Shown here piece after piece: positions 400 to 62,500 of a stretch of DNA of 64,000 nucleotides. Source of the stretch: Balanoglossus misakiensis. Taxonomy: Eukaryota; Animalia; Hemichordata. The translations under genes and the position numbers were made by a program. A model generated the notes under the pieces. That model did no database searches. It was not told where the DNA came from and saw only the letters and a list, made by a program, of their open reading frames with translations. How positions within the stretch are numbered: position 1 is the stretch's first letter; each line of letters opens with the position of its first letter. The stretch spans positions 8,669,625 through 8,733,624 of the forward strand of contig CM082579.2 of NCBI GenBank assembly GCA_040954595.2, written 5' to 3'.

Positions 400-463
400 C
401 CCAAAGGACAAAAGCGCGATTCCGTCGTGAGGGCGCTCATCGCCGGCGTCCAAAATGGCGGCC
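400..463 (+). promoter_or_regulatory. CpG-rich proximal promoter/5' UTR of GLYR1 with a YY1-type motif overlapping the start codon
   Basis: CpG-dense stretch ending in CAAAATGGCGGCC (451-463), which matches the YY1 consensus AANATGGCGGC and contains the ATG. Confidence 0.5.
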
Positions 464-3400
464 AAGTTCAACTTGGGTGATCTTGTCTGGTAAGTTACAC
501 GCGATTTTGCACAATTCTGTGCCTCACGTCTCTTGTTTTGTGTGAGAAAACGTTCTTCAGTCCATATTTGTTCCAGTCTGACGGTGTGATTTCCATTTCA
601 GGGCAAAATTGAGCAGTTTTCCGGCTTGGCCTGGCAAGGTAAGATTTACAAACAACAGCACTGCGATGAACACGATCCATGTGTCAAACCACGGTCACGC
701 TGCGCGTGTGTAAAAGTGCACGCTTACAGTGAATTTAATCTGGAATATACTTTAAATCACGTTGGCCGTCAAACGATGCACCAACATGCAATATGTAACC
801 TAACGTGTTAGGAGATTTCAGCTCCCCTCGGCTTGTTACAAACAGAAGGGGTTGGCACTGTTTTTGTGAATGAGTTGGCCTGTATTATGCAGGCTGACGC
901 CTTATTTACACAACAATGGGGTTTACTGGGGTACCTATAAGTGTCCAAAACGACAGTCACAATGACCTCTTTTAAAATCGCCAAACTCTGTTCCCAAGTC
1001 CACACAGCCCCTCCCAGTTGCACCAGGTATGTGCCGTAATTGGGAGGCAGCAACATGGTCGTACACTTAGAAAATGCTGTCAAGCAGTTTCCTGTGAATG
1101 TGCACCAGATCAGTGATGTATGCATGCATGGTGTATGCATCACTAACTGTACATAGCAGTGGGTGTACATAGCTTCTTGTTTCCATCCATCACACGCCTT
1201 CTTATCAGTACTAAGCTCTGCATGGCAGGACTGTGTATTGGTACTGGCTACGCATCCAACCTCAGTCCTGCTGACTCTCATAGACTGAGATATGGTGTTG
1301 CTATTGTCACAGTTTCATGTCGGAAAGACTCCAACTGAAAACATCCGATTGTGAAATTTAATTGTGTGTCGGTCTGCGTTTTCGAGCACGGACTCAACTG
1401 TGCTTGAAAACTTAACAGCAATTGGTATGCAATCATTCTGTTTTCAAATGGAGAACTTTCCAACACAAAACTGTGGTGGACTGGACATATTGGTGTCAGC
1501 AGGGTTGCGATTGGAGGCATAGCAGGTAACAGTACACAACATTGCCATGTGAAGTTAAATGGTACTTCACTACAGAGCTCCATGTACCATTGAAGCCAGC
1601 TGTCACTGTGCGAAAGCTTCCTGATATATCTCTACAGAGTTCAATAGCTGTTAGTCATGTTGTTTTCAAGATAAATCATGAACATATTTTTTATTTCTAA
1701 GGTTGTGCGTCCCATGAAAAATGTGAAGAAACCAGCTGGCAAAAAACCTGTGCACTTTATCTTTTTCTATGGCACTGAAGACCAGTAAGTATCTATGTAG
1801 TGTTGATTTCAATCGGTGCACACATGAAAACAACATGTGTTTATTTCAAAGGCACATGTCGGTTTCTAACTTTGTCGACTCTTGCCAGGGCATTCACCAA
1901 TTTACATGTATTATTTTGCAATGTTCGCTTTACCTCATGGGGGGGAAATTAAAAGTTCACATCTTTTGTTTAAATTTCATACAAATATACAATGTTTTGT
2001 TTATTGTGCTGTTAAATTCTTGGGAATGGATGGTAGCTCTTAGTAAAACAAGAACTGTGCCACGGAGAGAAAAAAGTAAATAATGTAACACTTATTCTAC
2101 TGTCAGATGATCGCCCTTTTGAAGCAGACTTTGATATTTTCTTAATCTCCCATTTCAGTGCCTGGGTCAAAGATGAGAACCTGAAACCCTATCTGGAATT
2201 CCGAGATCAGCTGTCAAAAGTCAAAGGAGTGAGATTCCAACGGGCCATAGAAGCAATTGAAGATGTCGTCAAAAATAGGTCAAAGGTTAGAACTGGGGCG
2301 TTGCCTCTTTGTGAAATTCTATACAGTTTCTACTTCTGTTAAAAGACCAGTCTTAACAATTTACCACTCGAATACACAGCTCCTCAGACCTATGACACTG
2401 TGAGACATGTCTCTTAGCTGGCATGCTTTTCTAGATCATTTGCACATTTAAAATTCTTCTGACATTTTAGCTTGTGAACTTACATAGAACAAAATCTATA
2501 TTTTGCGGAGTACAGCTGGGTCTTCTTTTGAAGTGTGTCATATTTTAAATGTTGCACTCACCCTCCATACATGATAAAATTTCCCATCTTGAATTGGTGC
2601 TCTTCTTGTCAAGAATATTAATCATTTAGTTTGTTCTGCGGCCTGGATAGAAAATTACTAATTGTGCACATTTAATTTACAAAGCAAGGGTCTGTGGTGG
2701 TGTAAATGTGCACTATCGATCAAGGTCAATACCTACTAACACATTCAAATGCCAGGAATATGCAATGAGATACAGTAGATCTCAACTTCCATCGAATGTG
2801 ATACTCTCTCCTCCAGCTTCTTAGATCAAAAACTACACACTCTCACAGATATTGTTCTCGTCTCATCGTACTTTCCTAAAGGTCCTGAATCGACCCCGAG
2901 TACCCCCAGAGGGGCAGGAGGATGATATCTTCCCTCTAGCCAAACCCAAGAAGGATTATTCCAGAGTGCTGGGTAGACCACTGTCCAAAGTAAGCATTAA
3001 TGATGGCATTTTTTGTTAGCAAATATGATCATACAAACTTATAAATAACAATGCGACTTGTGAGAATTTGCAACACATTTTCTGGGCGGATGTGTTATCA
3101 GATATCCCAACCTGTCATTCTCACCAATTCTCACTGTTATCACATCATTCTCAGGATCACTCAGACACAGGCAGCCCTCCACCAGAATCACCGACCACAA
3201 CATCTAGCAGAACCACAACAGTCAAAAGGGTAAGCAAATGTTGAAGACAATCAGTCCTGTGGCTTTAATTTGGGCCCATTGAACACCTCATCAGAAGACT
3301 GAATCTCATGTTGTTCAAGATGGAATGTAGAAAGGAATAATATACATGTAATGTGAATGTGTAATCCTTTGGTAATGTCAAAGGTTACAGCATTCGTGTA

Positions 3401-6400
3401 ACTGCTATGCATGCACCAGTTGGCTGAGTCTGTTAACTGGAGAATTTGACCAATCAGTATCAACCTTATGTGACAGGCACTGTGCAACAGTCTCGTAAAG
3501 TCGTTTTTGATTGGTTACTTCCTTGTCAAGTCACTCTTCAAACAGGTGTTCTGACTACTAAACCATCCCTAAGACAGATTGTGTATCCAGTGGCAATTCA
3601 GATGAATACCCATACCATGTGCTCGAATTCTATAAGCTCTGAGATAAGCCCTTCTGAAACACTACGACACAGTGGCTAGCCAAAAAAGTGATCCATAAAT
3701 TCTGCATTTTAATTTGCAGTAGCCAAGTGAGGTTGTACATGTATCTGACTTTTCAAGGGTGTTTGTGAAGCTACATTGTAACCTTTTCACCAGGCACACG
3801 AATTAGACGACTCATGAAAGCTGACCGTCCAAGCTTCTGCATATGACCCCTGAATGGATAGCCTGTTGCATTCCACAAGAATTTCCACAGACCCCAGTTA
3901 CTGGTCAAGTAATCATAATCGTGCAATGAGTCATTCTCAGTTTCTGTTTCTCGTTTTCTTTTTGTAGGCAGCTGTATCTTCCAGGCGGAGCAGTGGCGGC
4001 AGCAGCAACAGTACGGGGCCGGCCGTCAAGAAACCAAAAACACAGATGAATCACGTCGCAACTCAGGAAACCTCGAACCCAGAGACGCCGCCGCCCGTTT
4101 CGGGGTCGGAAACAACCACAAAAGACAGAATCAGTCCAACCATCGGAAGGTGAGAGTGAAAAAGTGACAGTATTGATAGTAGTTGTTTTGGATAAAATGG
4201 CTTGACGCTAACAGTCACAGTTTTAATATTCCCGAGAATATAATCATGGCATCTATAGGTCTTACATGTATCATGGGTATATCAAGACACATCAAGACAC
4301 AATCTTGTTCCAGGGAATTTATGTACTATATTTTAATTTTGCCATTTTGAATGACCTGAGTGTGATCGAAACAGGGTGTCGCTGTTGTTGGTATTCTTGA
4401 CTTTACTCATCATTGCAAGCTTCTGCACTGGCTTTCTATTCACAGGGTTGGTTTGGTTGGCGTGGGAACAATGGGTCTCGGCATGGCCAGTACTCTCATA
4501 AACTCAGGACACACAGTGACTGTGTGGAATAGAACAGAAGAAAAGGTGAGAGCTTAAAAGAAAGTGTGTGCGTCAGAGCGCTACCAAAGATATAAGGTTG
4601 CTCGCTCTAAATAAAAAGAAAGTTAGTGTTTCTCAAAATATGATGAAACCTGAGTACTTATCATGGTTGTTTCTCTGTAAAAGTGTACACCCACAAAATC
4701 TGACGACAAAATAGTGTGATTAAAAGGGTCAATATCCAGAATTTTTGAAAAAAAAACATTCAGCAGTCTAGCAATCATTTGAGACATCTTTGTGTGTTTT
4801 TTCCGCACAGTGTAGTGACATAGTAGCCCTCGGTGGCACCAAAGCGGTGAGCGCCTCAGAAGTCGTCCAATCATCAGATATCACTTTCTGTAGTGTGTCC
4901 GATCCAGAAGCCCTTCGAGATGTGAGTATATCATGCCCAAGATTTCCTCATCTTGCTAGATTTTTGCCGTGCAGCTGTGGTTTGCGTTGTAAGCTGTTGT
5001 GTCTTATGTTATGTATCCGTGTACCTGTGTGTGATGTTTATTGTTGCAGTCTGTGTGGTTGTCACTCTTAGTTGTCTGGGCACAGTATCGGATGACTTCC
5101 TACTGATCAGCAACAATCGTTGCATTTTAAGACAAGAATGTAAACGCACCCCTTCAATGATAGGATGTAATAATTCTTCAGCTTAGACTTAGAGTTGATG
5201 AAGTCTTAGAATGCAACGTCCACCATGACGTCAAGTCTAGTGCATTGCATCATATTAAGAACTATTAACCTTTTTGTGTTGTGTCTGTTACAGGTCGTGT
5301 TCGGTCTGGGTGGTGTCTTGGAAGGCATCAGACCCGGCAAAGGATTCATCAGCATGTCCACTGTAGATGCTGAGACGAGTCGAGACGTGGCTGAGGTGAT
5401 TAATTAATCAATATTTAACAGTCAAAAGAACCAACAGCTCTCAGATTAGTACATTCACCAAATCACCGTCAACCCCATCTAGTTGTGTACTGGCCCAGTG
5501 ACAACTGAGATGGGACAAAAATTGGAAAATTGATTTAATGTACATGTACATGTATGCATTTCTATAAGTATTGGTGTATGATGATTAATTTTCAGGCTGT
5601 GACAACCAGGGGAGGCAGATATTTGGAGTCGCCGGTTTTGGGAAGCAAGAAACAATCCCAGGATGGCACGTTGATGATACTGTCGGCCGGCGACAAGACG
5701 CTATTTGAAGACTGCGAATCGTGCTTTTCTGCCATGTCAAAGAAATATATTTATTTAGGTCGGTGGCCCCCTCGTCAGTCTGAGATCTCTTTCAGAAGGG
5801 CACTTGTTGCTGCGGATGATATAACACAATGGAAATACAGTCAAACCTGCCTATAGTAGCCAGTCAAGGGACTGTGTTTATCTGGCCTTTATAGACAGGT
5901 GGCCTTTATAGACAGGTCAATAACTGCACTTGTAAAATGCACACATAGATGTGAAAAAAAATTACCACTATAGACAGGTATCCACTATATAGAGGTGGCC
6001 ATTAACACAGGTTTGACTGTTGTTGCTTCTTGTTGTCAAAGCTGTGAATCTCATAAAGGGTGCAGTTTTATATGAATGGTGGTGGACCATCCAAAACTCT
6101 CCAAGTCATCTAACTGTGTGTCTTTGTTTCTGTGCTTACAGGTGAAGTTGGCACAGCCATCCAGATGAAACTGGCCATAAACCTTTTGCTTGGGTCAGTG
6201 ACGGCGTCCATGGCCGAGAGCATGGCTCTGGCCGAACGGGCGGGCTTAGACTGCAGCGTGATGTTCAACATCTTGACAACTGGATTGATTCTGGATCCCT
6301 TGGTTAAAAGCAAAGGAAAAGGTACCAGTTTTGATTGGAATGATACCGGATGAGCTCTTGTCTCTTACTACAGGAGAAATGTTTCCCACTCTGTTTTAGG

Positions 6401-34500: not shown

Positions 34501-37500
34501 TCTGAAATGTCTACACAAGTGCCTGTACCTGTTTGGACTTGTGAAGCTCATTGAATTTGTATATTTTTTTGGTGAATAAATTAGGTGAATGAGTGACTAA
34601 TGGGTATAAATGGGATACGTTGGTTGATGACTGAAAAATTGTGTGATCAAACTTGTCTACTAGCCTAGTTGTCTGTAATTGAAAATGCCACTAATGATAT
34701 ATTAGAGAGGGGGTCATATTTCGGTCAGAGACCACCATTTCACCCAGTTTCTCTTGATGTAGATAGGAGTTCGTTCATTGTTGATAACAGTGAAGTCTGA
34801 TAAAAGTTTGCATAAGAGGGTTAACCTGCATTACCCGTATCCCTTGAAACAGATGAAGAGTACATTTTCTTTGCAGTTTTTATCCAGTCTTTCTTGGTTA
34901 AAATGCCATCATAAGTTTTATGTTACTGGATAACAATATCCTATTCAATTGGTTCAGACTCCGACATGTTGTATCACATTACTGATGAGTGAAATATGCA
35001 TTCCAGAAGAGAATGGTCACTGTGTGTCGCTTGGGGGCGCTATTACTTGTGTACATTAGACCTCATTATCCCTGCAAAACAAGTAGTGATGATACACAAA
35101 CAGAAAATATTCAAGTGGAGAAAAAAATAAGGAAATAACTAACTGTATGTTGATTAAAGTGAACCCATCGTCGCACCGCGCTTGTGCATAGAAGCCAACG
35201 ATACCATTTATGATCTTTCCTTTTCAGTTGTTTTTGATGTTTTTCATGCATGCTTCTTACTTAAGACATAATTAAGACATCTTCTTGTAGTAGGACTAAC
35301 AGTGTATTTGGATTTGTCTGTTTTTCAGATCAACTCCTGACAGGGATCGGGAAAGGAGAAAGGCAATGGACCAGAGAAAGAGAATTGTGGAGATGAACAA
35401 AGAACAAGATGCCCATAGACCTTTGTTTGATGCCCCAATTAAGGTAAAATATGTTTGCTTGTCAGTGTAAAATTACTGAGTATCACAAGCCACAACCTAA
35501 CGTATCAGCTGCAAGTCAGCCTTTTGTATCATACCTCGAGCACTGGCACAGCCTTGGCACTATATAACTTGTTTTTACATGTCAAGATTTCCCTGTCTTT
35601 CTTCTGTCAGGTCCACGAAACAAGAGATGACATTAGTCGACGGATTCAGAGCACGCTCGGCAGCTTTGATGCCATCCAGCACGATCTGAGTGCCAGAAAT
35701 AACTACAACCTGCTAGGAATCCCTAAGCAGCCACAAACTCCGGTCACCGGCAAGAATGCAGCGGCACCTCCGTTTCCCGACAATCCCTCCAAGCCCTCCT
35801 CGGTGGGCCTCCCCCTGTCCAACGGCACGGGGCGGCTCTCCAACCTGGACGGCAAGTTCGGCGCCCACGACATGATCAAAACCGTGCTGGCGGGGGGCAA
35901 CGCCACCCTCCCCTCTTCCCGGAAGGCGGAGAAGAAGAAGTCGCCGGGATCCAGCAGGAGGAGTGGCGGAGGTGGGAAGGCGAAGCAGGAGTACGACGGA
36001 AAGCACGTCAAGAAAGCGCTGGATCCGCACGTGGCAGACGGTCTTAGTAGCATGGATACTAATAAACACTGCGTGGAGGAGAGCAGGAGGCGGGGTGCGC
36101 CACAGCACGGTGCTAGCCCCCACCATAGAGAGCCCAAGGAGAGGGACTCGACTGCCAACGTCAAAGCGGAGGGGGAGTCCCTCAAGCCGTCTCTGGACAG
36201 GAAAGAGGAGGGGTTTCACTCCCCGCCCCCGGTGGGGAGGCCCCCGCTATTCACGCAACTGAAGCCCAAAGTGGAGAAGTCAGAGTCGAAATCGCCCAGC
36301 AAGGAGGTCGCCGCGGCCAGCGAAGCCAAAGCGGAAGCATTGGCGATGGCTGCATCGTCATCATCGTCTTCGTCCATCAAGCATGGGGACACTGCCAAAG
36401 CCAAGCTTGATGACAGGCCGAATGGTCTGCTGTACAATGGAGTGCCCAAGGAGTTGGAGCAGCCAAAGCCTGAAGGTGTACCAAAGCATGGTCACGCAGA
36501 AAAGTCCTTGTTGAAGAAGACTTTGCCAAAACTATCGCTGCTGCCACAGGTAAGTGCAGTATTGTTCTTTTTTTTACCTAAATCGCAGATATATGGTGAG
36601 TTCAGACTGGCTGTGCTAAGAAACCTTTCCACAACTCCCGACGGAGTGACTGTTGTCTTGCATTCGATAACATGGTCTGCTGTTTCAATTAGGCTGGTTT
36701 AAGAATTTATGAAATATGGGCAATGCAACAAGTGATTCTGGATCGCAAGTATTTCAGTGCTCAAGAGGCAAAAGGACCTGATACGAAACGTAGTGTACTG
36801 TCAACAGAGAGGGACTGTGAAACAGTCAAGCCTTGTGCTGTATGTCCACAGTCAACGTCACAATGCTTGGTTTCAATTCAGTGGCTGTTCAGTGTTGTTC
36901 GAACTCATCAATGGTTTGTGTCTTAAGTCATTGGGGCAGACAGTCAGTCAGTCTGTCTGTCTCACCCACTTCTTTTTAGTACCTAAACTGTGTATAATGT
37001 ATATATGAGATTGGCCTAGAAATTGTTTCAACCTGTTCTCCACAGACCCTGTGTTGCTGGCATTTGAGAACTTCAACACAGGGTTTCTGTTGTGTGAGGT
37101 GGCTCAAGGTTCAAAGGGTTATCGTGTAGTGACTTGAGATAGCCCATCAACTACACACTCAATTAGAGTGGTTTTCTTCTGAAACCCGAGTGTTGCCTGC
37201 GGTTGTCTTGAGTGCGTTTGGGCAGACCCGGCCAACACATGCAACACTGTTCCTGTGAAATTGGAGTGCACTTGGACACAGTCCATAATGAAAGGAAGTG
37301 GAAATAGTTTGTGTTCTTATACTCGGTTAATTGTCAAGTTGTTGACAGATCTGGGTAGATGTGTGTATTCCATTGTGGTGTGTGAAAAATAATGGGGGTG
37401 AAATGATCTTTCTGATAATGTCCTGTGCCTTGCTGTAAATTGCATCGAGAGAGAAGGGGGGGGGGACTGATGAATCATTGAGATTGAGAGTGGTGTGGAA

Positions 37501-40500: not shown

Positions 40501-43500
40501 AGGTTCAAGCAACCACCCAGATACATCATGTCGGATTTTTTTTTCTCTCCTTCGGATTAAGGAAATTCGGCGGCGCGAGATGTCGCGCGATGTTTGTGAA
40601 GCGTGAGTGTACACGGCCGGCCGGGCCATGCCGAGTGAGATTTCCCGTGATTTGTATGCAATATCATGATTCCAATAACCTGCCCAGATGACCCTTAATC
40701 AGAGACTACAGGTTTAATTTCCTTCTCATCCCATCTTCTGCCTCCCCAGGGGGTATACTCTCTCCTCTTTTGAGTCTGATTGCTGCTGCTTGCAAATTTT
40801 TACTACAACAAGATTACGGTCTCATTTCATAGCGTTTGATTACACGTCAGATTGCTTTGGTGGCCCTACTAAATTTCTGCAAATTCGAGGAAAGAAGAAA
40901 AAAAACAGCATTTGACGCAATGATGTTATCAGAGAGCTTTATAAAAGGGCTTTATGACTTCTTGCATTGATTGTGTCAGGGCAGTAACATTTGCCATCTC
41001 TTCTACCCTCCCTCTATCATCTTTATTTTCGGCCTCCGTTAAATCACGGCAAGCTCATTTATTTCTCCAGAGTGTAACTATGGATACTAATGTGCCAATG
41101 AACTCGCCCGGTGCAAGCGTGCATGCCCATGGCAGGGATATTTTCTAATCATGCTAATCTAAAAAGGCCAAGTCTTGATAGTGAGTCTCGATAGCAAAAA
41201 TGGAGACATTATCTGGAGCTCTGGGCCTGTTTGTACACCGTAGTTTCACTATTCCAACTCTTTGATCTGTCTGTAACCATTCTACAAATAGCTCCTATGA
41301 AAACATAATCAGCTGTACGGTACACTGCAGTGTCTGAATTTCATAATGGGTGATTTCCCTAATTTGTAGCTGATAGTGCGGTATTTGCGATTTCAAGCTG
41401 ATTTAACTCATGCTTCCACCTCTCGATAGATATAGCATTCCAGCTCTTAGGTAGATCGGACTGTCACAAGTTGTAAAAGCCTCTGATTAGAAAAATTACT
41501 ATGTGAACCCAAACTGGTCATTCCGTGTCAATTCCCGACAAATCAATGGCAGTCAAGCACATGGTCCCCCCAACACGGAACTGTCAATTCTAACAAGGAA
41601 GGCAAGTCAAATAAATTAGGTTTTATAACGGTGATAGCTTGGCGCCACTGTGCTGTACTTACTAGTCCCCTGTGATTGCTGTTTTAACCCATGGAAATAA
41701 ATGTTCTAATTACTTTCCCATTTATTATTTATCATCCCCCCTGTTTCATAGCCTTTTACACGGACGGCCCCTCAGGACTTACAGCATCACTTATTTTCCA
41801 GCCAACACGGTTCCCAATATTTCTATGGTGTTGTCGGTTTTTGAAACTCATTTGTCCGTATTTTGTTCAAAGGAGAATGAAGGGGTCGTAAATGTGAGTT
41901 TGCCCCTGGGGTTGATTTGAATTTTTAGTCAGGTGTGTGCGGAAGATTAATGACCCAGGATGTGGGCATTTATGAAGACAAATTTTAGATCAATTTAGAT
42001 GCATAAAGAGAGAGAGAGAAATTCCTTGTGTGATGCGATTGCCTGTATGGCCTTCTGTTTGTACTCGTTAATATTCCATAACACTGCAGACATAGTGAAC
42101 TGTGGGTACAAGGGAGGAATTGCCTCTAGCCCTACAGCATGATATTCGTTGTTGAATATTTTGCAGACTTCCATTGGTACGTACGTGCTCCGTGCCGTGT
42201 ACGTTTTTGTGTTCGTCTGGGGTGCTCACAAGTGTATACATGCACAAGTGTGCTTAATTGTGTGCACGTGCATGCATATGTTAGCACTTGCGTGTATGCA
42301 CTCATACAAGTCCACACTCTCAAGAAGATGAATTTCACTGCATGATACATTAATTAACGAAGACACTGAAAGATGTGGCTGAAAGCCTGTATGCAAATAA
42401 GTGAGTTATTTATGATTAATCGTAACAGAAGGATTGATTGATGACATGCACTATTGATGGACAGTTGACAGATTGGATGTTGGCTCGGCTGTTGACCTCC
42501 AATTTCAGGTTGTCTTCTTTAAGCATACTATAGTAGAAGTGATCAATAAACAGTGCTTACAATCGTTTGGAATTTAAAATATTTAATAATAGTCTGTGAG
42601 TATTATTCTGTGGGATAGTAAAAATCTAAGCACTGGTATGTGCAAATTGCAATGGTAGACAATTTTATATTTTCATTACCTCTGCTTCCATCATTATCGT
42701 ATAACTTTCACTTTTATCACTCATTAAAAAGAGAACAATTTGGATAGCTGTCTGCGACACTACCCTGCTGAGTCTATTAAAAGTTCCCTTTTTGTAATTC
42801 GCTTCAGTTATTCTGGTCACACAGCTTCCGATCTTTAAATTTAGAAACTGCAACAGGTGCACATACTGGATCTGTCATCATTATGCATTTTTGAACCCAC
42901 GTCCATGTGGGTGGTAGGGGTTATTCACTCGCCACACATTCAGTACAGTATTTTTATTCGCCAGTTGAAAAAAAACGAAATGCAGTTCTGGGTTTTGTGT
43001 GTGCTGCCAAGCTGTAATAGGCCCGGAGTTTTGGACCGTTGCCTGGTTACGAGCTATTCCCTCCCCTCCCGGCGTCAACAAAGCTGGTACCGCGTCGCCA
43101 TGGAAACACAGTACCACTCGTATGCAATTTGTGGGGAACACTTGAGTGTATTCAGCCAGTTTTGTGGCTTCGTGCGCTGACATTCTCATCGGAACAGATG
43201 GTGTGTGTTTTAATGATCATTAATAGCATCTAGTTGCCGTGGAAAGAGACATGATTTGGCATGGGGCTGCAAATAGACAGCTAGTACACTTTACCTATCA
43301 AAAACAATAAAGACATAGAGGGAAAATAGTGTTTGATATATAGAAAATAGCTACCGCAGGTAGCTATTGTATCTATATAAAATATGCTTTTCCCAACATT
43401 TCCCAGAATGTTCAGTACGTCATCATGCGCGATGATGCCATAATAAAAATCAATATCAGTAGCTGAAATTTTTGCACATCAATTCTGGTAGCCATAATTG

Positions 43501-49500: not shown

Positions 49501-52500
49501 GGGTTGTCTGAAATTTGCTGCAAAGGTTGTTGAGCTTTTAAGTTTTATGGAGCAATGTTTCTAGAAATCCAGGTTAACGATGGTAGCCAAGAATGAGTCC
49601 TAGGCTATCAGAATGTCAAACAGTCACATGCATAAAACCTACTCACTCTTTCAATACTGTCTGCAACACATGTTAATTGATACATAAGTCACAATTTCAG
49701 ATTGTGTTTTATTTCCCCCTGGTTGAAAGGTTGCCCGTGGTCAGAATTCTTTGCTGCAAACTAGGCTAGCGGGTAGGGTCATCGACCCCTTTGTAAGTGG
49801 AGGCAGACTGGGAGAGGAATAAAAACTGTATTTGCAATTTGCAAGGAATTGAAATGACTCAGCGTGTGTGTGCATCCCAGCCGATGTCTAAGCACCCCAT
49901 TTGGCTGTCTGTACATCATTCCCGATATGTGAGCAGCCTACTTCTCTAAAGGGCATGTCATCGAAGTAAGATGAATGTAGCACTATGATGACTCAGCCAG
50001 CAGACAACAGAGATCACCTCCAGTGCTTCAGTGATACACTCAGTGTTATCACTTCCCCATTGAATTCTTGAGGATTTCTGTTATGCATCTTTTTATGGAT
50101 TATCCATCATCATCAGCACCAATTCCTCCACTTATATCGAAAAGATTTCTTGAGTGACATATTTTGTCAGAGATGTGATGGTTACAATTATTTTTCTTGT
50201 ACGATAAAAAGCACTTGTTCATAACATCTATTCTTTATTACATTATTATAAGCATTATCATGGGAAGCGTCACAGTGACTCTTAATGAACTGATGTTAGC
50301 AGTAAACTGGGGGTTGCCATGGTTGCAGAGAGTGTCATTGGGGTTGCCTCTCAAGGGTCTGTTTCAGTGTACATTGGCCAGCAATTGTCAACTCTGTGAG
50401 ATAAGATATGGTCATACCAGAAGCTGTACATGTACTTATGTTGGTGAGGATTCCACTATGAATTGATCTGGGCAGAATATGAGAAAGTAACGGCCAACCA
50501 GACATGTAATCTAAAAAGCTCTTTTAAATTACAACCAGCCTGTTGTTGTGGCACCGATCAAGCTGATGCATTTGATTATCAGAGCGAATTAAATGAAATA
50601 TCTCGTGGCCCAGTTCACTTCATTTTCCCCTTCCCCTGTCTTTTATGTGAGTTTCTTCCTCTTGGGGCGAGACCCCTTTGTGGCGATGGTTCTGCGCTCG
50701 TTCCAGCTTGTGCTGCATCAGTAGACTGGTCTTGCTGTGACATGTGGTGCGCCTTGTCCCCTTGTTGTCCGCTGGGACCGCATTGATGCTCACCAACTGG
50801 CTGCTCTCTGGCCGTCCACCTTACATACGGCCGTCCTCTGCACAGAGCCTCCGCCAGAGTCCAACGTCGCATCGCTTCTTCGAGGTCCCGTTCCTCCGTC
50901 TGGGTTGCAGCGGCTACGCTCGGGCAACCGGTGGCTACGTGGTGGTAGGGGAGAAAGCAGTCCTTGCACAGGTGAATGGAGCACTGCCTGCAGAGGAAGA
51001 CTGTGGTGACGAAGCAGCCGCTGGGGGTTCTCCGTCCCATCTTGATGCACATCCTGCAGCTGGCCCCTCTGCCTTCCCCCTTGATCAGGCTGTGGTTCTT
51101 GTACGTGTGTATGGGCGGCGCCACGTTCGTCACCGCCTGCCTGCGCGAGGTGAAGCCCCCGACCATGGCCGTGCCCACGTCCACCTGGAAGGCTTTGTGC
51201 GGTTTCCGCCCGTCAACCAGCTCGGCGTAGATGATCCAGCTGTTGGATATTGCCGTGTCGAGCAGGTAGAAGAAAATGTACTTCCACCACTTGTGGCTGC
51301 GCTGCGTTGCGAAGTACGATTTCAGCTTATTGGCTCGGTCGACGCCGCCCATGTACTGGTTGTACACGGAAACCACGTCGGGGGCTGGCAGGGTGTACGC
51401 AACCGTTTTCATCGACGCGGCCGACCTCATGTATCGTACCACTCTTTCGTTTTCCGTTCTATACCCCTCGCGACTGTTGGTCAGTAGAGACAGAAAGCGC
51501 GCGTCCTTGTACACAACCACCACCAAGTCGCCCTTCTGCATGGCGGCGAACTGGCCCCGCTGTAACCCGCTTATCTGCTTACTGTTTGGGTTCTTGCCGG
51601 GGTTTGTGTGTAGGGCCGGCGGGTAACCCTTGCTGGTTTGCCGTATGCTGCCGACCAGATACGTCTGGTGGTCACGGAGCAGCGTCTGTGCCAACGCCAT
51701 GCTTGTGTAGAAACTGTCGGTGAACAGCGTGTGGTAGCGTCCCCGAATTGGGCGTGCCAGCTCCACGCAGATGGCTGCGGTTCTTGAGACGTCGCGCGTG
51801 TCTTCCTCGTGGCTGCCGGTGGACATCTTAAATTTCACGTTCGCCGTGTATTTAGTGGCGCTGTCGTGGAGGGTGTAGACTTTGATTGGACGAGCCTTGT
51901 ACGCCACTACGGTTTCCCCGATGGCCACCTGTTCGTGCATGTTGTAGCACTGGCGAGACTTTGTCATTACAACGTCGAGGACCGGCGCCACTTTATACAT
52001 GGGTTGCGCCCGATGCGCCCTACGCTCCACTGGGTCTTCGATATTAGCTGGGTCTTGGTCGGCGTCGTTGCAATGGAAGTATTGCATGATCTTCTGGAAG
52101 CGATTTCGGCTCATGACGCTGGCGATGAAGTCGTTTCGAACCGCCCTGTTTGTGGACCAGTAGTCGGCCACCTCGTGTTTGGGGTCGGCGCCCATCAGTA
52201 TCAGTATCCCGATCACGGCCTGCATCTCCTCCTCGTCCACCGGGGACCAGAATCTGTCCTCCTCGGCGTTCCGACGGCTGACCCACCGAGCGTAGCTGTT
52301 GGTCTCCCGCTGCAGCCGTCTCACCAGCGAGGGCGGGAAGATCTGCTGGAAGGCGCTCAGGGGAGTGGGGTCCTCCTCCCCCAGGTCGACAGAGGCACCG
52401 GGTTCACCACCAGTGAAGGCGTGCAAACTGTGCCTTCTCAATCGATACGACCAGTCTGCATCATCGTCGTCGCTGTCACTGGGACTGTCTTCTTCATCGT

Positions 52501-55500
52501 CGCTCATGTACGTTGGTTCTGAATAGCCACTGGCGGCCCAGGTAGTTTCTATTCTGGTGAGACCGGGAGGCGACTTGCGCACACGGCGGGTCGCGCTCTC
52601 TGCCAAGCCGTCGCCAGCCGATGCTTCCTCCTCGCAGCCGGACGATGTATCGATTTCGGACTCGGGATCAGATGAGGGGACAGAATCAGCACCAGTGCTG
52701 CCGTCTTCACTGTCGCTGCTATCAAGCATTTCAACCTTGATTCGCTTTCTTGTCCCCGTAGCTCCTGTCGGGGAAGCAGATTGCCCAGTGTCTGATACGT
52801 CCATCGGGAACTCATTTCCCTGGTGTGATGTGCTGGGTCTCACAGTGACACAGTCCGAAGTGCTGGCCTCTGCACCAAAAACCACCTCTCCCTGTCCTTG
52901 CTCCTCGCTGATGTCTGGCGGAGTAGGGGTTACACGCCCATCCTTTGTATAGTACACATGTTTTCGGACAGCACCCTGTGTATTCAATTGACCTGAAATG
53001 AAGAACACTTTCTTGTTCAGTGACTTGCACAGAATGTCATTTCTTAGGCAGTGATTAGACATAGGATATAATGCAGGATGTCCGTCCATTAGAAAATGTT
53101 CACGGAAATCACAATCATTGAGCCACAGAGTTGTTTGTATGAATGTTGATATCTGGCCGCTGGGGTCAGTTCTGTATACTGTCATTGAACACTGTTGGTT
53201 GATTCAAGGACTTTGCCATTTCCACTTCTTGAAGTGTTAGATACATGTACATGTGGTTGACTTTAGCTTCCAGTCGTACAAGACACCATAAACCTGTACT
53301 CACCCCAAAAATCCATGGTACAAGTTGTGTTTGGTCAGACTGCCAGATGCTTTCTTTAACATTGACGGCTTTGTGGAGCAGTGGCAAAGCAGAGGCCTCA
53401 TGTACTGTCTAAACAGTCAAACATCTGCCCCAGTGTCAGTGTATGGGAGAACCATTTCATTTCTAGGGGAGGGAGGGGGGTGGGGTGGACAGAGGATTTG
53501 GCTTTGTCAGCAATTTTTTATCCAGCCACTGTTACAGCAATTTATTTTCTATTGCCAGTCCAAACTTTTTTTCTCACTGCATTGCTTGTAGAATAACATT
53601 CTTTTTCCTCCTAACAATCTGTCAACAATCTCCCACCCCCAAAAAATCCTCCTCCCACCCCCAGAAATAAAATGGTTCTCCTCTTAATTAAAAACTAATA
53701 CTGAGAGTTACTGGTGCCTGGGCGATTTGTGATTTGATACTACTTGGGAAGTTCACCACAGCTTGTAACTGGATACGACCTGGGAGTTAATTTGCATGCT
53801 TTTTTCTACTTGGCTGTATCTGTCATTCCGTGCACAGCTGAGTTGATCTTTAGTGTTCGGATGATGATATGTACCATAGAAATATTTTTTGACTTTATTC
53901 TGTATTCCAGTTTCCAGCTTTGAACCAAGAAGGTATACAAAAAATATTTTGCTAGGTATAAAAAAGCAACATGTTTATAGTAATACTTTGCCAGAAACAT
54001 TGTCTACACCAAATACCAGCCATGCCGTGACTGGTTATATATTCAGTCATGATTTGGTCCAGTGGTTTCGTCGTCCATCAATGTAGCAGGGAATATGCCA
54101 TTGAAAACCAACCTGTTTATATATTAATTTCAATCATTATGAAAGTGTCTTTAGCACACCATCAAGAGGATGGCCAAAACGGAAGAGCCAATTGGATGGC
54201 AAACGGCAGTGTTTGATCAACTTCACCAATCAGACTCAGTGTAACAAAACCTGTCGGACGCACCAAAACACGGATGTGGAGAATGTACTAATTTCATTTA
54301 GTGCAGAGATCAGAGCACTGTTCTAAAAATACGTTCAGTATTATAACATTTAGAAATCAGTGGACTCCGTAAGCAAGCACTTCAGTGCTCGCGGACGATG
54401 GCTATAAATAGACCGCCGAGTATTGTGACGTACGTTTCCATGGTAATGGTGATGCATTTTGTCAGCGCGTTGTACTCGGACGGAAGTGCCGTCACACGCA
54501 AGCCAGTTTCATTTGTTTGAAACCACTAGAAGGTATCTGAATGATGACGTCAAAGATGTATGGATTGGGAAAACGAAAGGTGTCGTCAGATTTTATATAA
54601 CGCATCTTTCATTTAAGTGATCAATGTGATGCCGTATCTATTCTTTGAACGACGTGTGTAGAAGCTAAATGTAGCTTGTATCCAGATGCACTGGAATTTG
54701 CTCGCGGATTTCTTACACAAAAGGAAATTGCCCGGGGGAAAAACAAACTGTCGCTAATAGTGAGTTGTGTGAACATCATTACAAAGGTGAAATTATTTTT
54801 TTGTTAAAATATTTTTTGTGTATTATAAACCGTAATAGATTTGACGCAGAAACGGGAATTGTATGACTGCCTTTGGAAACGTGGAGATCATCATTTATCA
54901 ATGGCTGTCACAAACAGTGAATGGTTGTTCAGAATTGATTGTGATATCTTGGCACTTCATAAGTGATGATGATATCGTAGTATTTCAGCTTCAGGAGTTG
55001 CAGTTGTAAATCAGTGTTTTGTAATTCCGCCACTCGCGCGAAGTGTGTCATAGGTTTTAATGAGCACAATCGGATTCTTGCGTTGTACTGTTAAATGTTA
55101 TGCGGTCTGATCCCTTTACAAAGATGCACTGTTGAAGTGGGAAGGTGGTTGTAACACCCAGCAGAGTTTCTGTTGCATTTGCGCATATCTTAGTTTAACA
55201 GTAGTTTGATCAGGGTACTAGACCTCAGAGCAGTTTTTTTTCCTTCTGCACTACGAGTGACCTACAATTTATATTGTGGCTGGGTCAGTTTGATCAGTAT
55301 TTGTTTGACTCATCCTGAGGTCATCAAAAATCATCTCTTATATAACTGCTGTCATAAATCTAATATTTTAAACATATTTTTTGTTGCTTTTGAACATATT
55401 TTTATTACAGATGTCAGATTTGAACCAAATCGTTATTAAAGTTTGATGTATATGTATCTATGGTTGATGAAATGTGCTGGTGTTTATATAATTCATTACA

Positions 55501-58500: not shown

Positions 58501-59186
58501 TTATCCCCTGGACGGGGTTTCAGTCAAGTTCAATGTTATTCTCACATATTGCATTTTTTGCGTGTTGGTTAGTTTCGTAGGTACTATTTAATTTGGGGGA
58601 GGGAGGGGGGATGGGTTACTAAGCATTGCAGTAGAGAAATCATAGGAGTGGAATGTTCATAATCAGGCCATAAAGTTGGTTTTTATAGCACCTCCTGCAT
58701 CATATGGAATGTATTCCATCATTTTCCAAGGGAACTGGGGTTGCCACTGTTATTGTGGTTGAAAGAATGAAACCACCTTACTCCGATAAAGTTGTCCCCA
58801 AGCCATGTAAGGATATTAAAGGGGGACTTCACACTTCAGAAGATGCAGGGATGTGCTGTCCCTGCAGCGCTAAAAGGGTCAGTGTGCACCATCACCCACC
58901 TAGGGGGTATTGATCAGTCGATGCCATAAGGCACCTTCCAACCGATTGTTGAAAAATAATTGAAACTGCTACTGATAGATTGGATCCAAATAATGTGTCA
59001 TGCAGTATGTTTACATTAAATTTAATGACTAGCTGAGGAAAAAAAGAAGAAATTTTCTTTAACAGCTCCCGTAGGGAACTGTGATTTCCTGGCTAAAAAC
59101 AAACACGGTTAGGATTTTATAGCACAGATAACACAACCTAGCAGTTCACACTTCGATATCGCTGAAATCAGTGCTGTAAAATGTAT

Positions 59187-59503
59187 TATATTATACCAGT
59201 ATATTGATGGTGTAAATCACGCTATTTGATTGGTCGAGACACGACACGTGACCGTGATATATTAGCCATATACCACAGTCATATATCATAGTTACAGAAA
59301 ATGCCTTTTTAAAATGTTTTATGCAAAGTTTCAATATACTGGCATAATATAATAGCAATAAAACACCCACAGCCATGGTATACCACTCGATTTTGACCAG
59401 TTCAACTCCATATACGCACTCGCTATCGCTCGTGCGTATATGTCGTGAACTGGTCAAAATCTCGTGATATACCATGGCTGGGGGTGTTTTATTGCTTAAA
59501 TAT
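59187..59503. mobile_element. Non-autonomous element ending in a ~140-bp palindrome (resembles Crypton-type non-autonomous repeats of aquatic animals)
   Basis: AGCAATAAAACACCCACAGCCATGGTATACCACTCGATTTTGACCAGTTCA (from 59354) pairs with TGAACTGGTCAAAATCTCGTGATATACCATGGCTGGGGGTGTTTTATTGCT (to 59496); inner ATATACGCAC/GTGCGTATAT; upstream GATTGG..CCGTGATATATTAGCCATATACCAC module. Family assignment is from memory. Confidence 0.65.
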
Positions 59504-62500
59504 TCTTTGCAATAATATTCTGTGCGATGATAAGTCTTGATGGCGTGGTTTTCAGGTCATGCTGAAAATACAGGTTTTCGTTGTTGATAGACAGCTTTTA
59601 CATGAAACGTTGATAAATTTGTGTTTGAAGAAACACTGATACGAAGACGTTGTCACATCTAGTTCGTTTGTTATTGGCTGATTCAGTGCATGTCCATTAA
59701 TAATTCGCCGAGTGCGCCAGTTTGCAAAAAAAATATGATGTTGAAGACCTTTGTCATTTGTCATGTTGACTGTTCGTTCTAAGCGGACATTGACAAGTCT
59801 TCTTTAAATGTCAGAGCAGACGGTTTCGATGTTCAAGTGTGCCATGATAGGTTTACAGGACTCACTAAGGATTCTGAATGTCTCTCTGGTTTCATGCTTT
59901 GCATGAACTTGGTCAGTCTGCGGACCAGGAGAGCACAAATCAAGTAACGATTCTAAGATTTCGCATATCCTCAGAAACTACTGGTACAAATCTCCCATCA
60001 TTATGAACTGTACCAGACTGATTTTTTCATACTGCCACTCTAAGAAGACATATGTCATTTACCACTTTTTTACTGTGAGATATCTTAAACTTCTTTTCTG
60101 CAAGTGTCTTGCTGTTTGAAACTTTCTTTCCTTCAGACAAACTACTTTTTTCCAAGGAAAACATGCCAAATTTGTGATGCAGTGAGTTGCAAATAATGTT
60201 AGGTGTACATCATGAATAGTTGTCTAATACTGAGAAGAATATTACTAGTACCCCACAATAAAAAATGTTATGTATAGACTTATTTCAGTCAATAAAATTG
60301 CCAGAGAGAATTTTCCAGCAATTATGGAGAAATTATAGAAAAAAAATGGCATGGACACGCACTCACATATATGCACACATAGAGTCCTGATGGAAATTAA
60401 TCACAGATATTTCTGCTAGTAGTCAATTTAGATTAGACCATTTTTCAGCAACTTCTTAAACTGTTGAGAAGTACGGAACAAAAGTTCTAAATTCCCTGGG
60501 GGAGCAATTTAACAAGAACATTTATATTGGCTGTAGCTTTAGAATTTCCTGCACTGCGACTCTGCGACCCCGTTCTCCCGAGTTATTTTTACCACCGCGA
60601 TGAGTTCCCGGAGACATCTCTGCTGCAGCCGTTGAAATCAAGGCATTGTTTAATTATGAAATAAGAACCGTGGGTTGCATTCCCCAGGTGGAGGTGGGAG
60701 TAATTTGAAATATGCCGTCTGTATGTGTAGGCTGTGACGACGCGCGCGGTGCACAAACTGCATCACTGATTGGGGTGTGTGTGGGAGCCGAGATCCCCCA
60801 AAGGCAACTTTTTTTACATTCTATGAGTAATGGCGCATTACATCAAAATTTACTTTGCAAAAAATGTAACCACTGGAGGTGGTGTGTCTCCTCTCTCTCT
60901 TCAGCCATTGCCGCCCAACATTTGAGAACGGCATTGGCGAAATCGCAATTTTAATTTAAAAAATGATGCCGCGCTTTGTATACCGGGTTTTTCTGTCAAG
61001 TTTTCAGGAATTTTCTGTGGTTGAGTGCGTTGGTGGCATTAGTCTTAATCAGCTCAAAACGCCAGTGGCATTTAAAGAAACACATTGTCGGCAGAAAGTA
61101 CTGCCTAAATCATTTAGTCTGTCTCGTTAGCATCTGTGGAAATTAATGTGCTTGAACTACTAACATATTTTGTCATGTGTCAAGATGCACACTTGAAACA
61201 AAACAAGTTCATTTGATTGCTCCCTAATAAGACTGCGTGATGTTCATTTACTTCAAAACTTATTTTTCTAGTCATTTGAGAGGCTGAAAGAAAATTTTAG
61301 ATTTTTACTATATACATGTACAACTTCCTGTGTACAGCTCCAATATTATGTTTTTTCATGAGGTTCACGCTTGATGCATATAAATGTTGTTTGTACCGTT
61401 CTCTTGCAAGAATAAGGTAACACTCCCACTGCATGATGGGAGGTTTCCCGCATGTCTGTCTGAGGTGATCTACTCTCTCTGCAGGAGAGTCACTGCCTCA
61501 GCAAAAAACAACAACTAAGGATATTGTATGTTCTGAAAGTCACCACTGTAATTGTGATGAATGAGAAGGACAGAAAAAAGTAAAAGAAAATGAATATGTG
61601 TATTAATATCCTAATAAATCATTCCTTAGTGCGTAGGTGTGTATAATTTAGAAATATGACCAGTACTGTAGTAGGATGCAATCATCCTTTTCAATTAGCC
61701 ACATTCAAAGTTTGGTGACAGTTTTGGTAAATTTGCCAATATTTGGTTCAAAGTAAATACAATTTTTCCCGTAGGGTTTAATTTTTTGTCATTTGTAATG
61801 ATTCATCCAGGAAGAAGTGTGAAATTAAACAAGGTATTATACATTTGCTCATTGAGGTTTCTAAGGTAATATGGTCAAATTGATCGTAGAAATGATCAGC
61901 TCTTCACAAGAACAAGGAAAAGCCATGTCACGTCTATTTCCATAGTAACAACAGCTGCCATCTTGTCCCATTTTAAGTTGTACTTGGTTTATAAATGTAA
62001 TTGCTGTGTCAATCAGGGTGAAAACTGACACTTCAAGTAGCTAATGCCATGGCTTTAATAACCCATGCCTGTCACCATCATTCAGTGGCCTGACTTGTCC
62101 GACCTTGACATAGAGGAGCTAAAGTAGGGCAAGTCAGAAGTTCAAACGTTCGCAAGCACTATACATCCTGCTTTAGTATCCTAGTTTCCTTTCTGTGGGT
62201 AATATTTTGTTTCCTAAAATGATTTGACAATGATACCTATTTGTGTATATTATGTATATAGGTCTACTTGGGAGTAGTGTTGTTCTCTGAATACTGTAGT
62301 GTGAGGCAGTCATGTTGTAGCGATAAAAACAAAAAATACGGATCAACTCATAAAAAGAAGTAATACTATGTGTTTTTCCATGTTCATGTCTTTCCCCCAT
62401 GGTTTTATTTTTACCTGTTGGCAACCTTTGAAATCTAATAAATTGATAATGATCATTTCTTGAGAAACATCAATATCAAGAATACGAATACTAGAAATAC

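What the first reader, a model, noticed from the sequence alone, without database searches (positions are those of the whole stretch)
50615..53316. Probable domesticated piggyBac-derived host gene nested antisense in an AFF intron
Seen: about 2.4 kb of open frame with no stop or frameshift; an ATG in ideal Kozak context (ACCATGG, 53316) with an in-frame stop six codons upstream; a canonical 311-nt GT-AG intron (53303-52993) giving MDFWG-QLNTQG...; a GC-rich coding core like the host AFF exon 3; a downstream AATAAA; no TTAA-CCC...GGG-TTAA termini found by eye; and altered catalytic motifs. Established: piggyBac transposases have been domesticated repeatedly (PGBD1-5, ciliate PiggyMac and Pgm-likes). 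Inference: this is a lineage-specific, non-mobile DNA-binding or chromatin protein gene kept by selection, possibly undescribed.
Basis: partly seen in the sequence, partly recalled or inferred. Interest (0 to 1): 0.85.

Follow-up and report, generated by a model that had tools for sequence, protein, structure and literature searches.

The report
Tamed piggyBac gene in acorn worm
An acorn worm carries an unbroken piggyBac transposase gene that has lost its first cutting residue and its target-gripping loop but kept its DNA-binding parts; it lies backwards in what is likely an AFF intron and likely survives as a host DNA-binding protein, a new case of a known kind of transposon taming.

Summary
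The minus strand carries an open piggyBac-family frame (796 aa if spliced as proposed), 14 kb downstream of a large AFF exon in an acorn worm, with no TTAA-flanked inverted ends above chance. It belongs to a multicopy, DDD-intact Saccoglossus piggyBac clade (50-55% identity). It should be unable to cut: the D268 equivalent is Gly and 16 residues of the omega loop are deleted in frame (13-residue span against 25-29 in 139 of 139 DDD-intact relatives). Constraint is uneven: 4/84 clade-invariant DNA-binding-domain sites changed against 13/69 catalytic sites (p=0.009). A decayed MITE lies 130 nt upstream of the ATG. Together these favour host selection after inactivation (about 0.7). Copy number, orthology, dN/dS and transcripts could not be tested, so formal PGBD status is open. 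Side finding: an LC8-type TQT motif behind the zinc finger is conserved across this clade. The scan had no earlier look-alike. New member of a known kind.

The parts
53304..53316 (-). Candidate first coding exon, 13 nt, Kozak ACCATGG
   Evidence: splicing not shown
52993..53303 (-). Candidate 311-nt GT-AG intron; GC 0.40 and CpG o/e 0.32; in-frame ATGs at 53185, 53089 and 53062 allow an unspliced start
   Evidence: its 70 open codons match none of 5 relatives' N-termini
50615..52992 (-). Main coding exon of the piggyBac-derived protein (PF13843, E 1e-59)
52457..52992 (-). Acidic, poorly conserved N-terminal region; first 60 aa weakly match Saccoglossus P0004
   Evidence: p=0.004 in 1 of 5 comparisons
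51932..52456 (-). N-terminal half of the dimerisation/DNA-binding domain; 0 of 53 clade-invariant columns changed
   Evidence: domain map from PMC7351741
51917..51919 (-). D268-equivalent codon, now GGG (Gly), two bases from any Asp codon
51884..51895 (-). Remnant (4 residues in place of 20) of the omega loop; net 16-residue in-frame deletion
51716..51718 (-). D346 equivalent, kept
51338..51340 (-). D447 equivalent, kept; the 4th position is Asn as in the clade
50939..51058 (-). C-terminal cysteine-rich zinc finger; Cys/His positions match the relatives
   Evidence: (PF13842, E 0.004, below cut-off)
50897..50905 (-). TQT motif (LC8-type anchor) in a predicted disordered linker before a helix
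50234..50239 (-). First downstream AATAAA, 375 nt after the stop
   Evidence: a common motif, weak
53446..53681 (.). Decayed MITE-like element, 34-nt arms with 30/34 matches, 130 nt upstream of the ATG
54381..54580 (-). CpG-rich patch with ETS-like and CRE half-site motifs; weak promoter candidate
   Evidence: 15 CpG, 4th-ranked non-coding patch in the window; motif names recalled
35329..35443 (+). AFF host gene exon
35611..36549 (+). Large AFF exon (PF05110, E 2e-5); the element lies 14 kb downstream of its donor

Best explanation
This is an unbroken piggyBac transposase gene that has lost its first catalytic Asp and its omega loop, and it is likely kept by the acorn-worm host as a non-cutting DNA-binding protein. 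Shown: the open frame, the two lesions, the missing ends, the retained zinc finger and the uneven conservation. Predicted: a well-folded piggyBac fold. From PMC7351741 and PMC5381638: D268 binds the catalytic metal and is required for all steps, and the omega loop holds the TTAA hairpin and melts the target, so excision and integration should both be lost. Inferred: it is transcribed antisense to AFF from its own promoter, dimerises through the DNA-binding domain (possibly helped by LC8 at the TQT motif), and binds terminal-repeat sequences of its parent family left in the genome, acting as a site-specific chromatin/transcription factor or as a competitor of cognate transposases.
For: Two independent inactivating lesions, one needing two base changes in one codon, in a frame with no stop or frameshift. 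Omega-loop span 13 against 25-29 in 139 of 139 DDD-intact relatives. With domain boundaries from the solved structure: 4/84 invariant columns changed in the DNA-binding domain against 13/69 in the catalytic core, p=0.0085. Three of 4 DDD-intact lineages show no such tilt, and the separately inactivated Saccoglossus P0002 shows it too (5/85 vs 22/72). All four indels that set the window's core apart from the full-length relatives are in frame. Simulated neutral survival of the frame is 3/600 at 2% divergence and 0/600 at 5% (indel rate assumed). A MITE 130 nt from the ATG has arms differing at 4/34 sites, suggesting the surroundings are old. No ends. Flanks are CpG-depleted like host introns right up to the acceptor and the stop. 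AF2 pLDDT 91, best matches piggyBat and piggyBac. Established reasoning, recalled: a dead transposase cannot be selected through its own transposition, so selection after inactivation must be at host level.
Against: No copy number, ortholog, dN/dS or transcript data. Overall change at invariant sites (18-19%) is close to that of mobile lineages (13-19%), so time since inactivation is not fixed by it. Like-for-like three-way tests give p 0.002-0.06, and one DDD-intact lineage (P0171) also tilts, p=0.04. Three changes beside the deletion may be one event. No ortholog from Ptychodera flava or Glandiceps appeared, although both have proteins in the collection; those searches are insensitive. The GC-rich core and the acceptor are shared with mobile elements. 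The nearest relative, P0183, is a short broken-looking fragment. The MITE could have been carried inside the element.
Confidence: 0.65

Rival explanations
1. A recently inserted, already dead piggyBac copy whose frame is still open by chance; its ends are lost, lie outside the window or are non-canonical.
For: The parent clade is multicopy with broken copies in Saccoglossus. At 0.5-1% divergence the frame survives in 12-35% of simulations. GC3 and the acceptor are shared with mobile elements. The control loci showed no TTAA-flanked ends in their short contigs either. Young dead copies usually outnumber domesticated genes (recalled).
Against: Needs two lesions, a second hit in the D268 codon and loss of both ends within about 1% divergence. 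It does not explain the DNA-binding-domain versus catalytic tilt or the decayed MITE beside the ATG.
Confidence: 0.2
2. A member of a non-autonomous piggyBac subfamily that carries a dead but full-length transposase and is moved in trans by active relatives.
For: Would allow lesions to be old while this copy is young. Saccoglossus holds several subfamilies with partial loop or triad loss (P0002, P0003).
Against: Mobilisation in trans needs ends, and none is seen. Nothing would keep the frame open in such a family (inference).
Confidence: 0.08
3. A host gene that keeps some nuclease or recombinase activity through D346, D447 and a substitute acidic residue.
For: D346 and D447 are kept, the Glu next to D268 is kept, and the fold is intact.
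Against: D268 ligates the metal and the omega loop positions the hairpin and target (PMC7351741); both are gone. The Glu is family-wide (invariant in alignment A4), not a new substitute.
Confidence: 0.07

Closest known systems
Saccoglossus kowalevskii piggyBac-like clade (XP_006820728.1, XP_006823874.1, XP_006813060.1, XP_077869650.1 and others)
   Same: One starred clade with the window protein (100); 50-55% identity; same N-terminal motif, 4th-position Asn, zinc finger and TQT tail
   Different: Most of these are multicopy with an intact DDD triad and omega loop, and several are broken; the window gene is whole but has lost D268 and the loop
Saccoglossus XP_077862600.1 (P0002)
   Same: Full-length, triad-defective, with the same tilt of conservation towards the DNA-binding domain
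   Different: Lost D346 rather than D268; derives from another subfamily; a clade with the window gene is rejected, p-AU 0.003, so it is a parallel case and not an ortholog
Domesticated PGBD1-5, KOBUTA and NeoPGBD (PMC5381638, PMC3902484, passages)
   Same: Transposase-derived frame without ends, catalytic motif not conserved, zinc finger kept as in PGBD2-4 and KOBUTA
   Different: Different lineage and host phylum; those have shown orthology and Ka/Ks, this has not. None of them was placed in my trees. The PGBD5 paper found no PGBD5 ortholog in hemichordates
CSB-PGBD3 exon trap (PMC3902484 and PMC5381638, passages)
   Same: A piggyBac frame with an upstream splice acceptor and downstream poly(A) signal inside a host intron
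   Different: PGBD3 is spliced onto host exons; this one is antisense to AFF and cannot fuse with it
T. ni piggyBac (6x67) and piggyBat (9c0f) transposases
   Same: Same predicted fold, Foldseek E 1e-24, TM about 0.6
   Different: Active enzymes with D268 and the omega loop; 20% identity

Membership tests
piggyBac superfamily transposase-derived protein | PF13843 core, piggyBac fold and C-terminal cysteine-rich domain | tested here: met
Mobile piggyBac-like element (PBLE) | Intact D268/D346/D447 triad | tested here: not met
   G-D-D; 139 of 154 aligned proteins have D-D-D
Mobile piggyBac-like element (PBLE) | Omega loop between strands 1 and 2 | tested here: not met
   span 13 against 25-29 in 139 of 139; mapping to T. 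ni
Mobile piggyBac-like element (PBLE) | Two terminal inverted repeats flanked by TTAA | tested here: not met
   14 kb downstream and 10.7 kb upstream searched, nothing above null; this clade's end sequence is unknown, so decayed or atypical ends could be missed
Domesticated PGBD (definition in PMC5381638) | Single copy in the genome | not testable with these tools
   no genome held; only one copy in the 64-kb window
Domesticated PGBD (definition in PMC5381638) | Orthologous position in different species | not testable with these tools
   no eukaryote genomes searchable; protein searches found no ortholog but are insensitive
Domesticated PGBD (definition in PMC5381638) | Ka/Ks showing selection | tested here: inconclusive
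   no ortholog DNA; the proxy test by domain gives p=0.0085 (four-way) and 0.002-0.06 (three-way)
Domesticated PGBD (definition in PMC5381638) | Intact frame without ends | tested here: met
Domesticated PGBD (definition in PMC5381638) | Expression | not testable with these tools
   no run was listed
PGBD1-5 orthologs | Grouping with vertebrate PGBD clades | not tested
   no PGBD1-5 sequence was in the trees; nearest relatives are enteropneust elements
LC8 client protein | TQT-type anchor in a disordered region with permissive flanks | tested here: met
   pLDDT under 50 at model residues 514-525, TQT at 521, Glu at +2, no Pro at -5 to -1 (rules from PMC6607443)
LC8 client protein | Measured or modelled binding to LC8 | not testable with these tools

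The most novel reading that the evidence does not exclude
A branch of piggyBac transposases docks the host hub protein LC8 on a TQT motif just behind its zinc finger to clamp the DNA-binding tails into a dimer. This wider lineage has been tamed several times in ambulacrarians (this gene, a separate Saccoglossus gene and a starfish gene from the sister clade), each time dropping catalysis while keeping a DNA-binding scaffold.
Probability: 0.25. Interest if true: 0.65.

Novelty: new member of a known kind. Interest (0 to 1): 0.42.

Why it matters
piggyBac domestication is well known in vertebrates and ciliates. I found no report of one in hemichordates (searches; passages of PMC5381638 and PMC3902484). 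A gene with the catalytic Asp and omega loop removed but the DNA-binding domain tightly kept would be a natural separation of binding from cutting, useful for asking what dead PGBD proteins do. The LC8-type motif is directly testable by peptide binding, and I found no paper linking LC8 to a piggyBac transposase.

Tried and rejected
No genome is held, so copy number is untested. No RNA holder was listed; this is no evidence on expression. Inverted-repeat, TTAA-pair and BLASTN searches for ends found nothing above null; the best near pairs matched 8/13, expected among 99 pairs. GC3 and the 5' intron were rejected as signs of domestication after the L001/L003/L005 control. Orthology with Saccoglossus P0002 was rejected. 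Homology of the 70 codons inside the claimed intron to relatives' N-termini: none in 5 of 5. The metagenome scan gave 11 loci at 21-36% identity, none from the close clade and none with visible ends. The 'shorter' protein search recovered P0025 but not P0024, P0026, P0027, P0032 or P0053, which one search had found, so missing orthologs mean little. ESM Atlas gave only generic PGBD4-like clusters. The supplement of PMC5381638, which lists Saccoglossus elements and may give this clade's ends, could not be read. Three look-ups in earlier findings gave nothing that bears on this locus. No complex prediction was sent: a homodimer would pass by likeness to 6x67, and no LC8 sequence was available. 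The opposite-strand ORFs over the gene are treated as shadows of its high GC3 (inference).
Full report
Host. No genome is held. The large plus-strand exon at 35611-36549 matches AF4/FMR2 proteins of Ptychodera flava (56%) and Glandiceps talaboti (37%), and an upstream exon lies at 35329-35443. The animal is therefore an acorn worm, probably nearer to Ptychodera (inference). No further AFF exon was found up to 64000 by tblastn or motif scan, and plus-strand G and T excess continues beyond the element. An intron of at least 27 kb is the simplest reading but is not shown.

Observation. The minus-strand frame is open for 862 codons, 53203-50615. The proposed exon, intron and Kozak context are as described and give 796 aa. 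Such an ATG-plus-donor occurs 4 times in 128 kb, this one included. The claimed intron has intron-like composition (GC 0.40, CpG o/e 0.32), and its 70 open codons resemble none of 5 relatives, while the first 60 residues after the acceptor resemble 1 of 5 (p=0.004). Splicing is plausible but unverified, and in-frame ATGs inside the intron allow an unspliced start.

Family. The protein has PF13843 (E 1e-59) and a weak zinc-finger hit. The AF2 model of the 540-residue core has pLDDT 91 and matches piggyBat and piggyBac structures best. The nearest full-length relatives are Saccoglossus proteins at 50-55% identity, spread over many loci, mostly with an intact triad and often truncated. A 28-row quick tree puts the window protein in a starred 12-row clade with them (the careful search did not finish). 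A 16-row careful LG+G4 tree makes a 107-aa ENA fragment, P0183, its sister (97/93) and rejects a clade with the triad-defective Saccoglossus P0002 (p-AU 0.003). No vertebrate PGBD was in either tree.

Lesions. Of 183 relatives, 153 covered enough of the core to align; with the window protein that is 154 rows, 139 of which have D-D-D. The window has G-D-D, and its Gly codon is two bases from Asp. The span from the first Asp to the Lys that ends the loop is 25-29 residues in 139 of 139 DDD-intact rows and 13 here. Through P0175 this maps to the T. ni segment after D268, the omega loop that contacts the hairpin and melts the TTAA target (PMC7351741, passages). PMC5381638 (passages) states that D268, D346 and D447 are required for all steps. 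The gene should therefore neither excise nor integrate. The 4th-position Asn is a clade trait and not a lesion.

Is it under selection? No ortholog DNA was available, so I used columns invariant in four DDD-intact lineages. With the domain limits of the solved structure, the window changed 4/84 columns in the DNA-binding/dimerisation domain and 13/69 in the catalytic core (p=0.0085); the N-terminal half changed 0/53. P0002 shows 5/85 and 22/72. Leave-one-out values for the mobile lineages are 16/101 vs 14/88, 14/99 vs 9/83, 14/99 vs 10/84 and 12/97 vs 24/98; the last tilts as well (p=0.04). Like-for-like three-way tests for the window give p = 0.015, 0.002, 0.063 and 0.024, and they overlap, so they are not independent. 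The sharper cluster around strand 1 (p=0.002) was defined after seeing the data. Total change is not above the mobile range by much (18-19% vs 13-19%). Neutral simulations (600 runs each; indels assumed at 7% of substitutions, 75% frameshifting) keep the frame open in 35%, 12%, 0.5% and 0% at 0.5, 1, 2 and 5% divergence; counting stops only, 16% at 2% and 2% at 5%. A neutral copy would have to be very young yet carry two lesions, a second hit in the D268 codon and no ends.

Ends and age. Among 5160 TTAA pairs the best inverted match was 10/13, against 10 and 11 in two nulls. A MITE-like element at 53446-53681 has arms matching at 30/34, which suggests several percent of decay 130 nt from the ATG. 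If that DNA is former element UTR, the gene has been in place long enough to have broken under neutrality; the MITE may also have travelled inside the element.

Loci L001, L003, L004 and L005 are 89-95% identical copies of a distant family, DDD-intact in the frames read (L001, L003, L005). Those three have GC3 0.68-0.70; L001 and L003 have AT-rich flanks and begin their long frame at a pyrimidine-rich acceptor. PMC5381638 reports acceptors and AATAAA in non-domesticated copies. GC content and the intron therefore do not show domestication.

LC8-type motif. Of 109 proteins with a recognisable zinc-finger end, 33 have tails of 12 residues or more; 14 of these carry TQT, TQY or VQV about 10-14 residues behind it. 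All 14 belong to the enteropneust clade (8) or one ENA clade (6), and the other 19 lack it (pattern chosen after seeing the alignment, sequences related). The flanks vary while the anchor stays. PMC6607443 (passages) defines the TQT anchor and warns that many anchors do not bind; that VQV is a variant LC8 anchor is recalled. In the model the motif is disordered and followed by a helix. Binding is untested.

Mechanism. Most likely a non-cutting dimer that still recognises the parent family's ends through the DNA-binding domain and the zinc finger, which binds end sequences specifically in T. ni piggyBac (PMC5861402, abstract). It would then act on relic ends as a chromatin or transcription factor, or as a competitor of active relatives. 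I put host retention at about 0.7 and this full account at 0.65. By the definition in PMC5381638 it remains 'PGBD-like' until orthology and Ka/Ks are shown.

Novelty. Searches for domesticated piggyBac with hemichordate, Ptychodera, omega loop or echinoderm terms (listings, plus passages of PMC3902484 and PMC5381638) showed no such gene. The unreadable supplement of PMC5381638 lists Saccoglossus PGBD-like sequences and may bear on this. It is a new member of a known kind.

Noticed in passing
proteins P0030, P0181, P0031 (not in the window): Asterias amurensis and A. rubens (96% identical) and Acanthaster planci (48%, four accessions) share a full-length piggyBac-derived protein with the second Asp replaced by Arg, from the sister clade of the window gene. 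This looks like a starfish domestication; one search listed no paper on it.
   Followed up: partly
protein P0002 (Saccoglossus XP_077862600.1): A second full-length, triad-defective gene of the same clade with strong DNA-binding-domain conservation; a candidate independent domestication.
   Followed up: partly
window 50897-50905 and 13 related proteins: Conserved TQT/TQY/VQV motif behind the zinc finger in two piggyBac clades; LC8-type anchor.
   Followed up: partly
window 455-640 (+): Two short exons with good splice sites that read like the start of a PWWP-domain gene, GLYR1-type (identification recalled, not tested); a second host gene upstream of AFF.
   Followed up: no
window 53446-53681; partial copy near 58583-58616: MITE-like element with G-rich subterminal arms. 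Its arm supplies a pyrimidine-rich acceptor near 53462 on the minus strand, so the ATG exon could be an internal exon.
   Followed up: partly
window 5836-6034 and L011 488-1179: A short repeat shared (75-85%) between the window and the flank of a metagenome piggyBac locus.
   Followed up: no
window 59346-59504, 59184-59354, 43320-43394: Further small inverted-repeat elements in the AFF intron, probably MITEs.
   Followed up: no
window 43094, 45618, 46926, 56519: X-box-like palindromes and CpG-rich patches in the AFF intron; possible enhancers (motif name recalled).
   Followed up: no
L001, L003, L004, L005, L011: A multicopy piggyBac family with an intact triad whose transposase frame begins at a splice acceptor, so it is intron-containing or exon-trapping.
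   Followed up: partly
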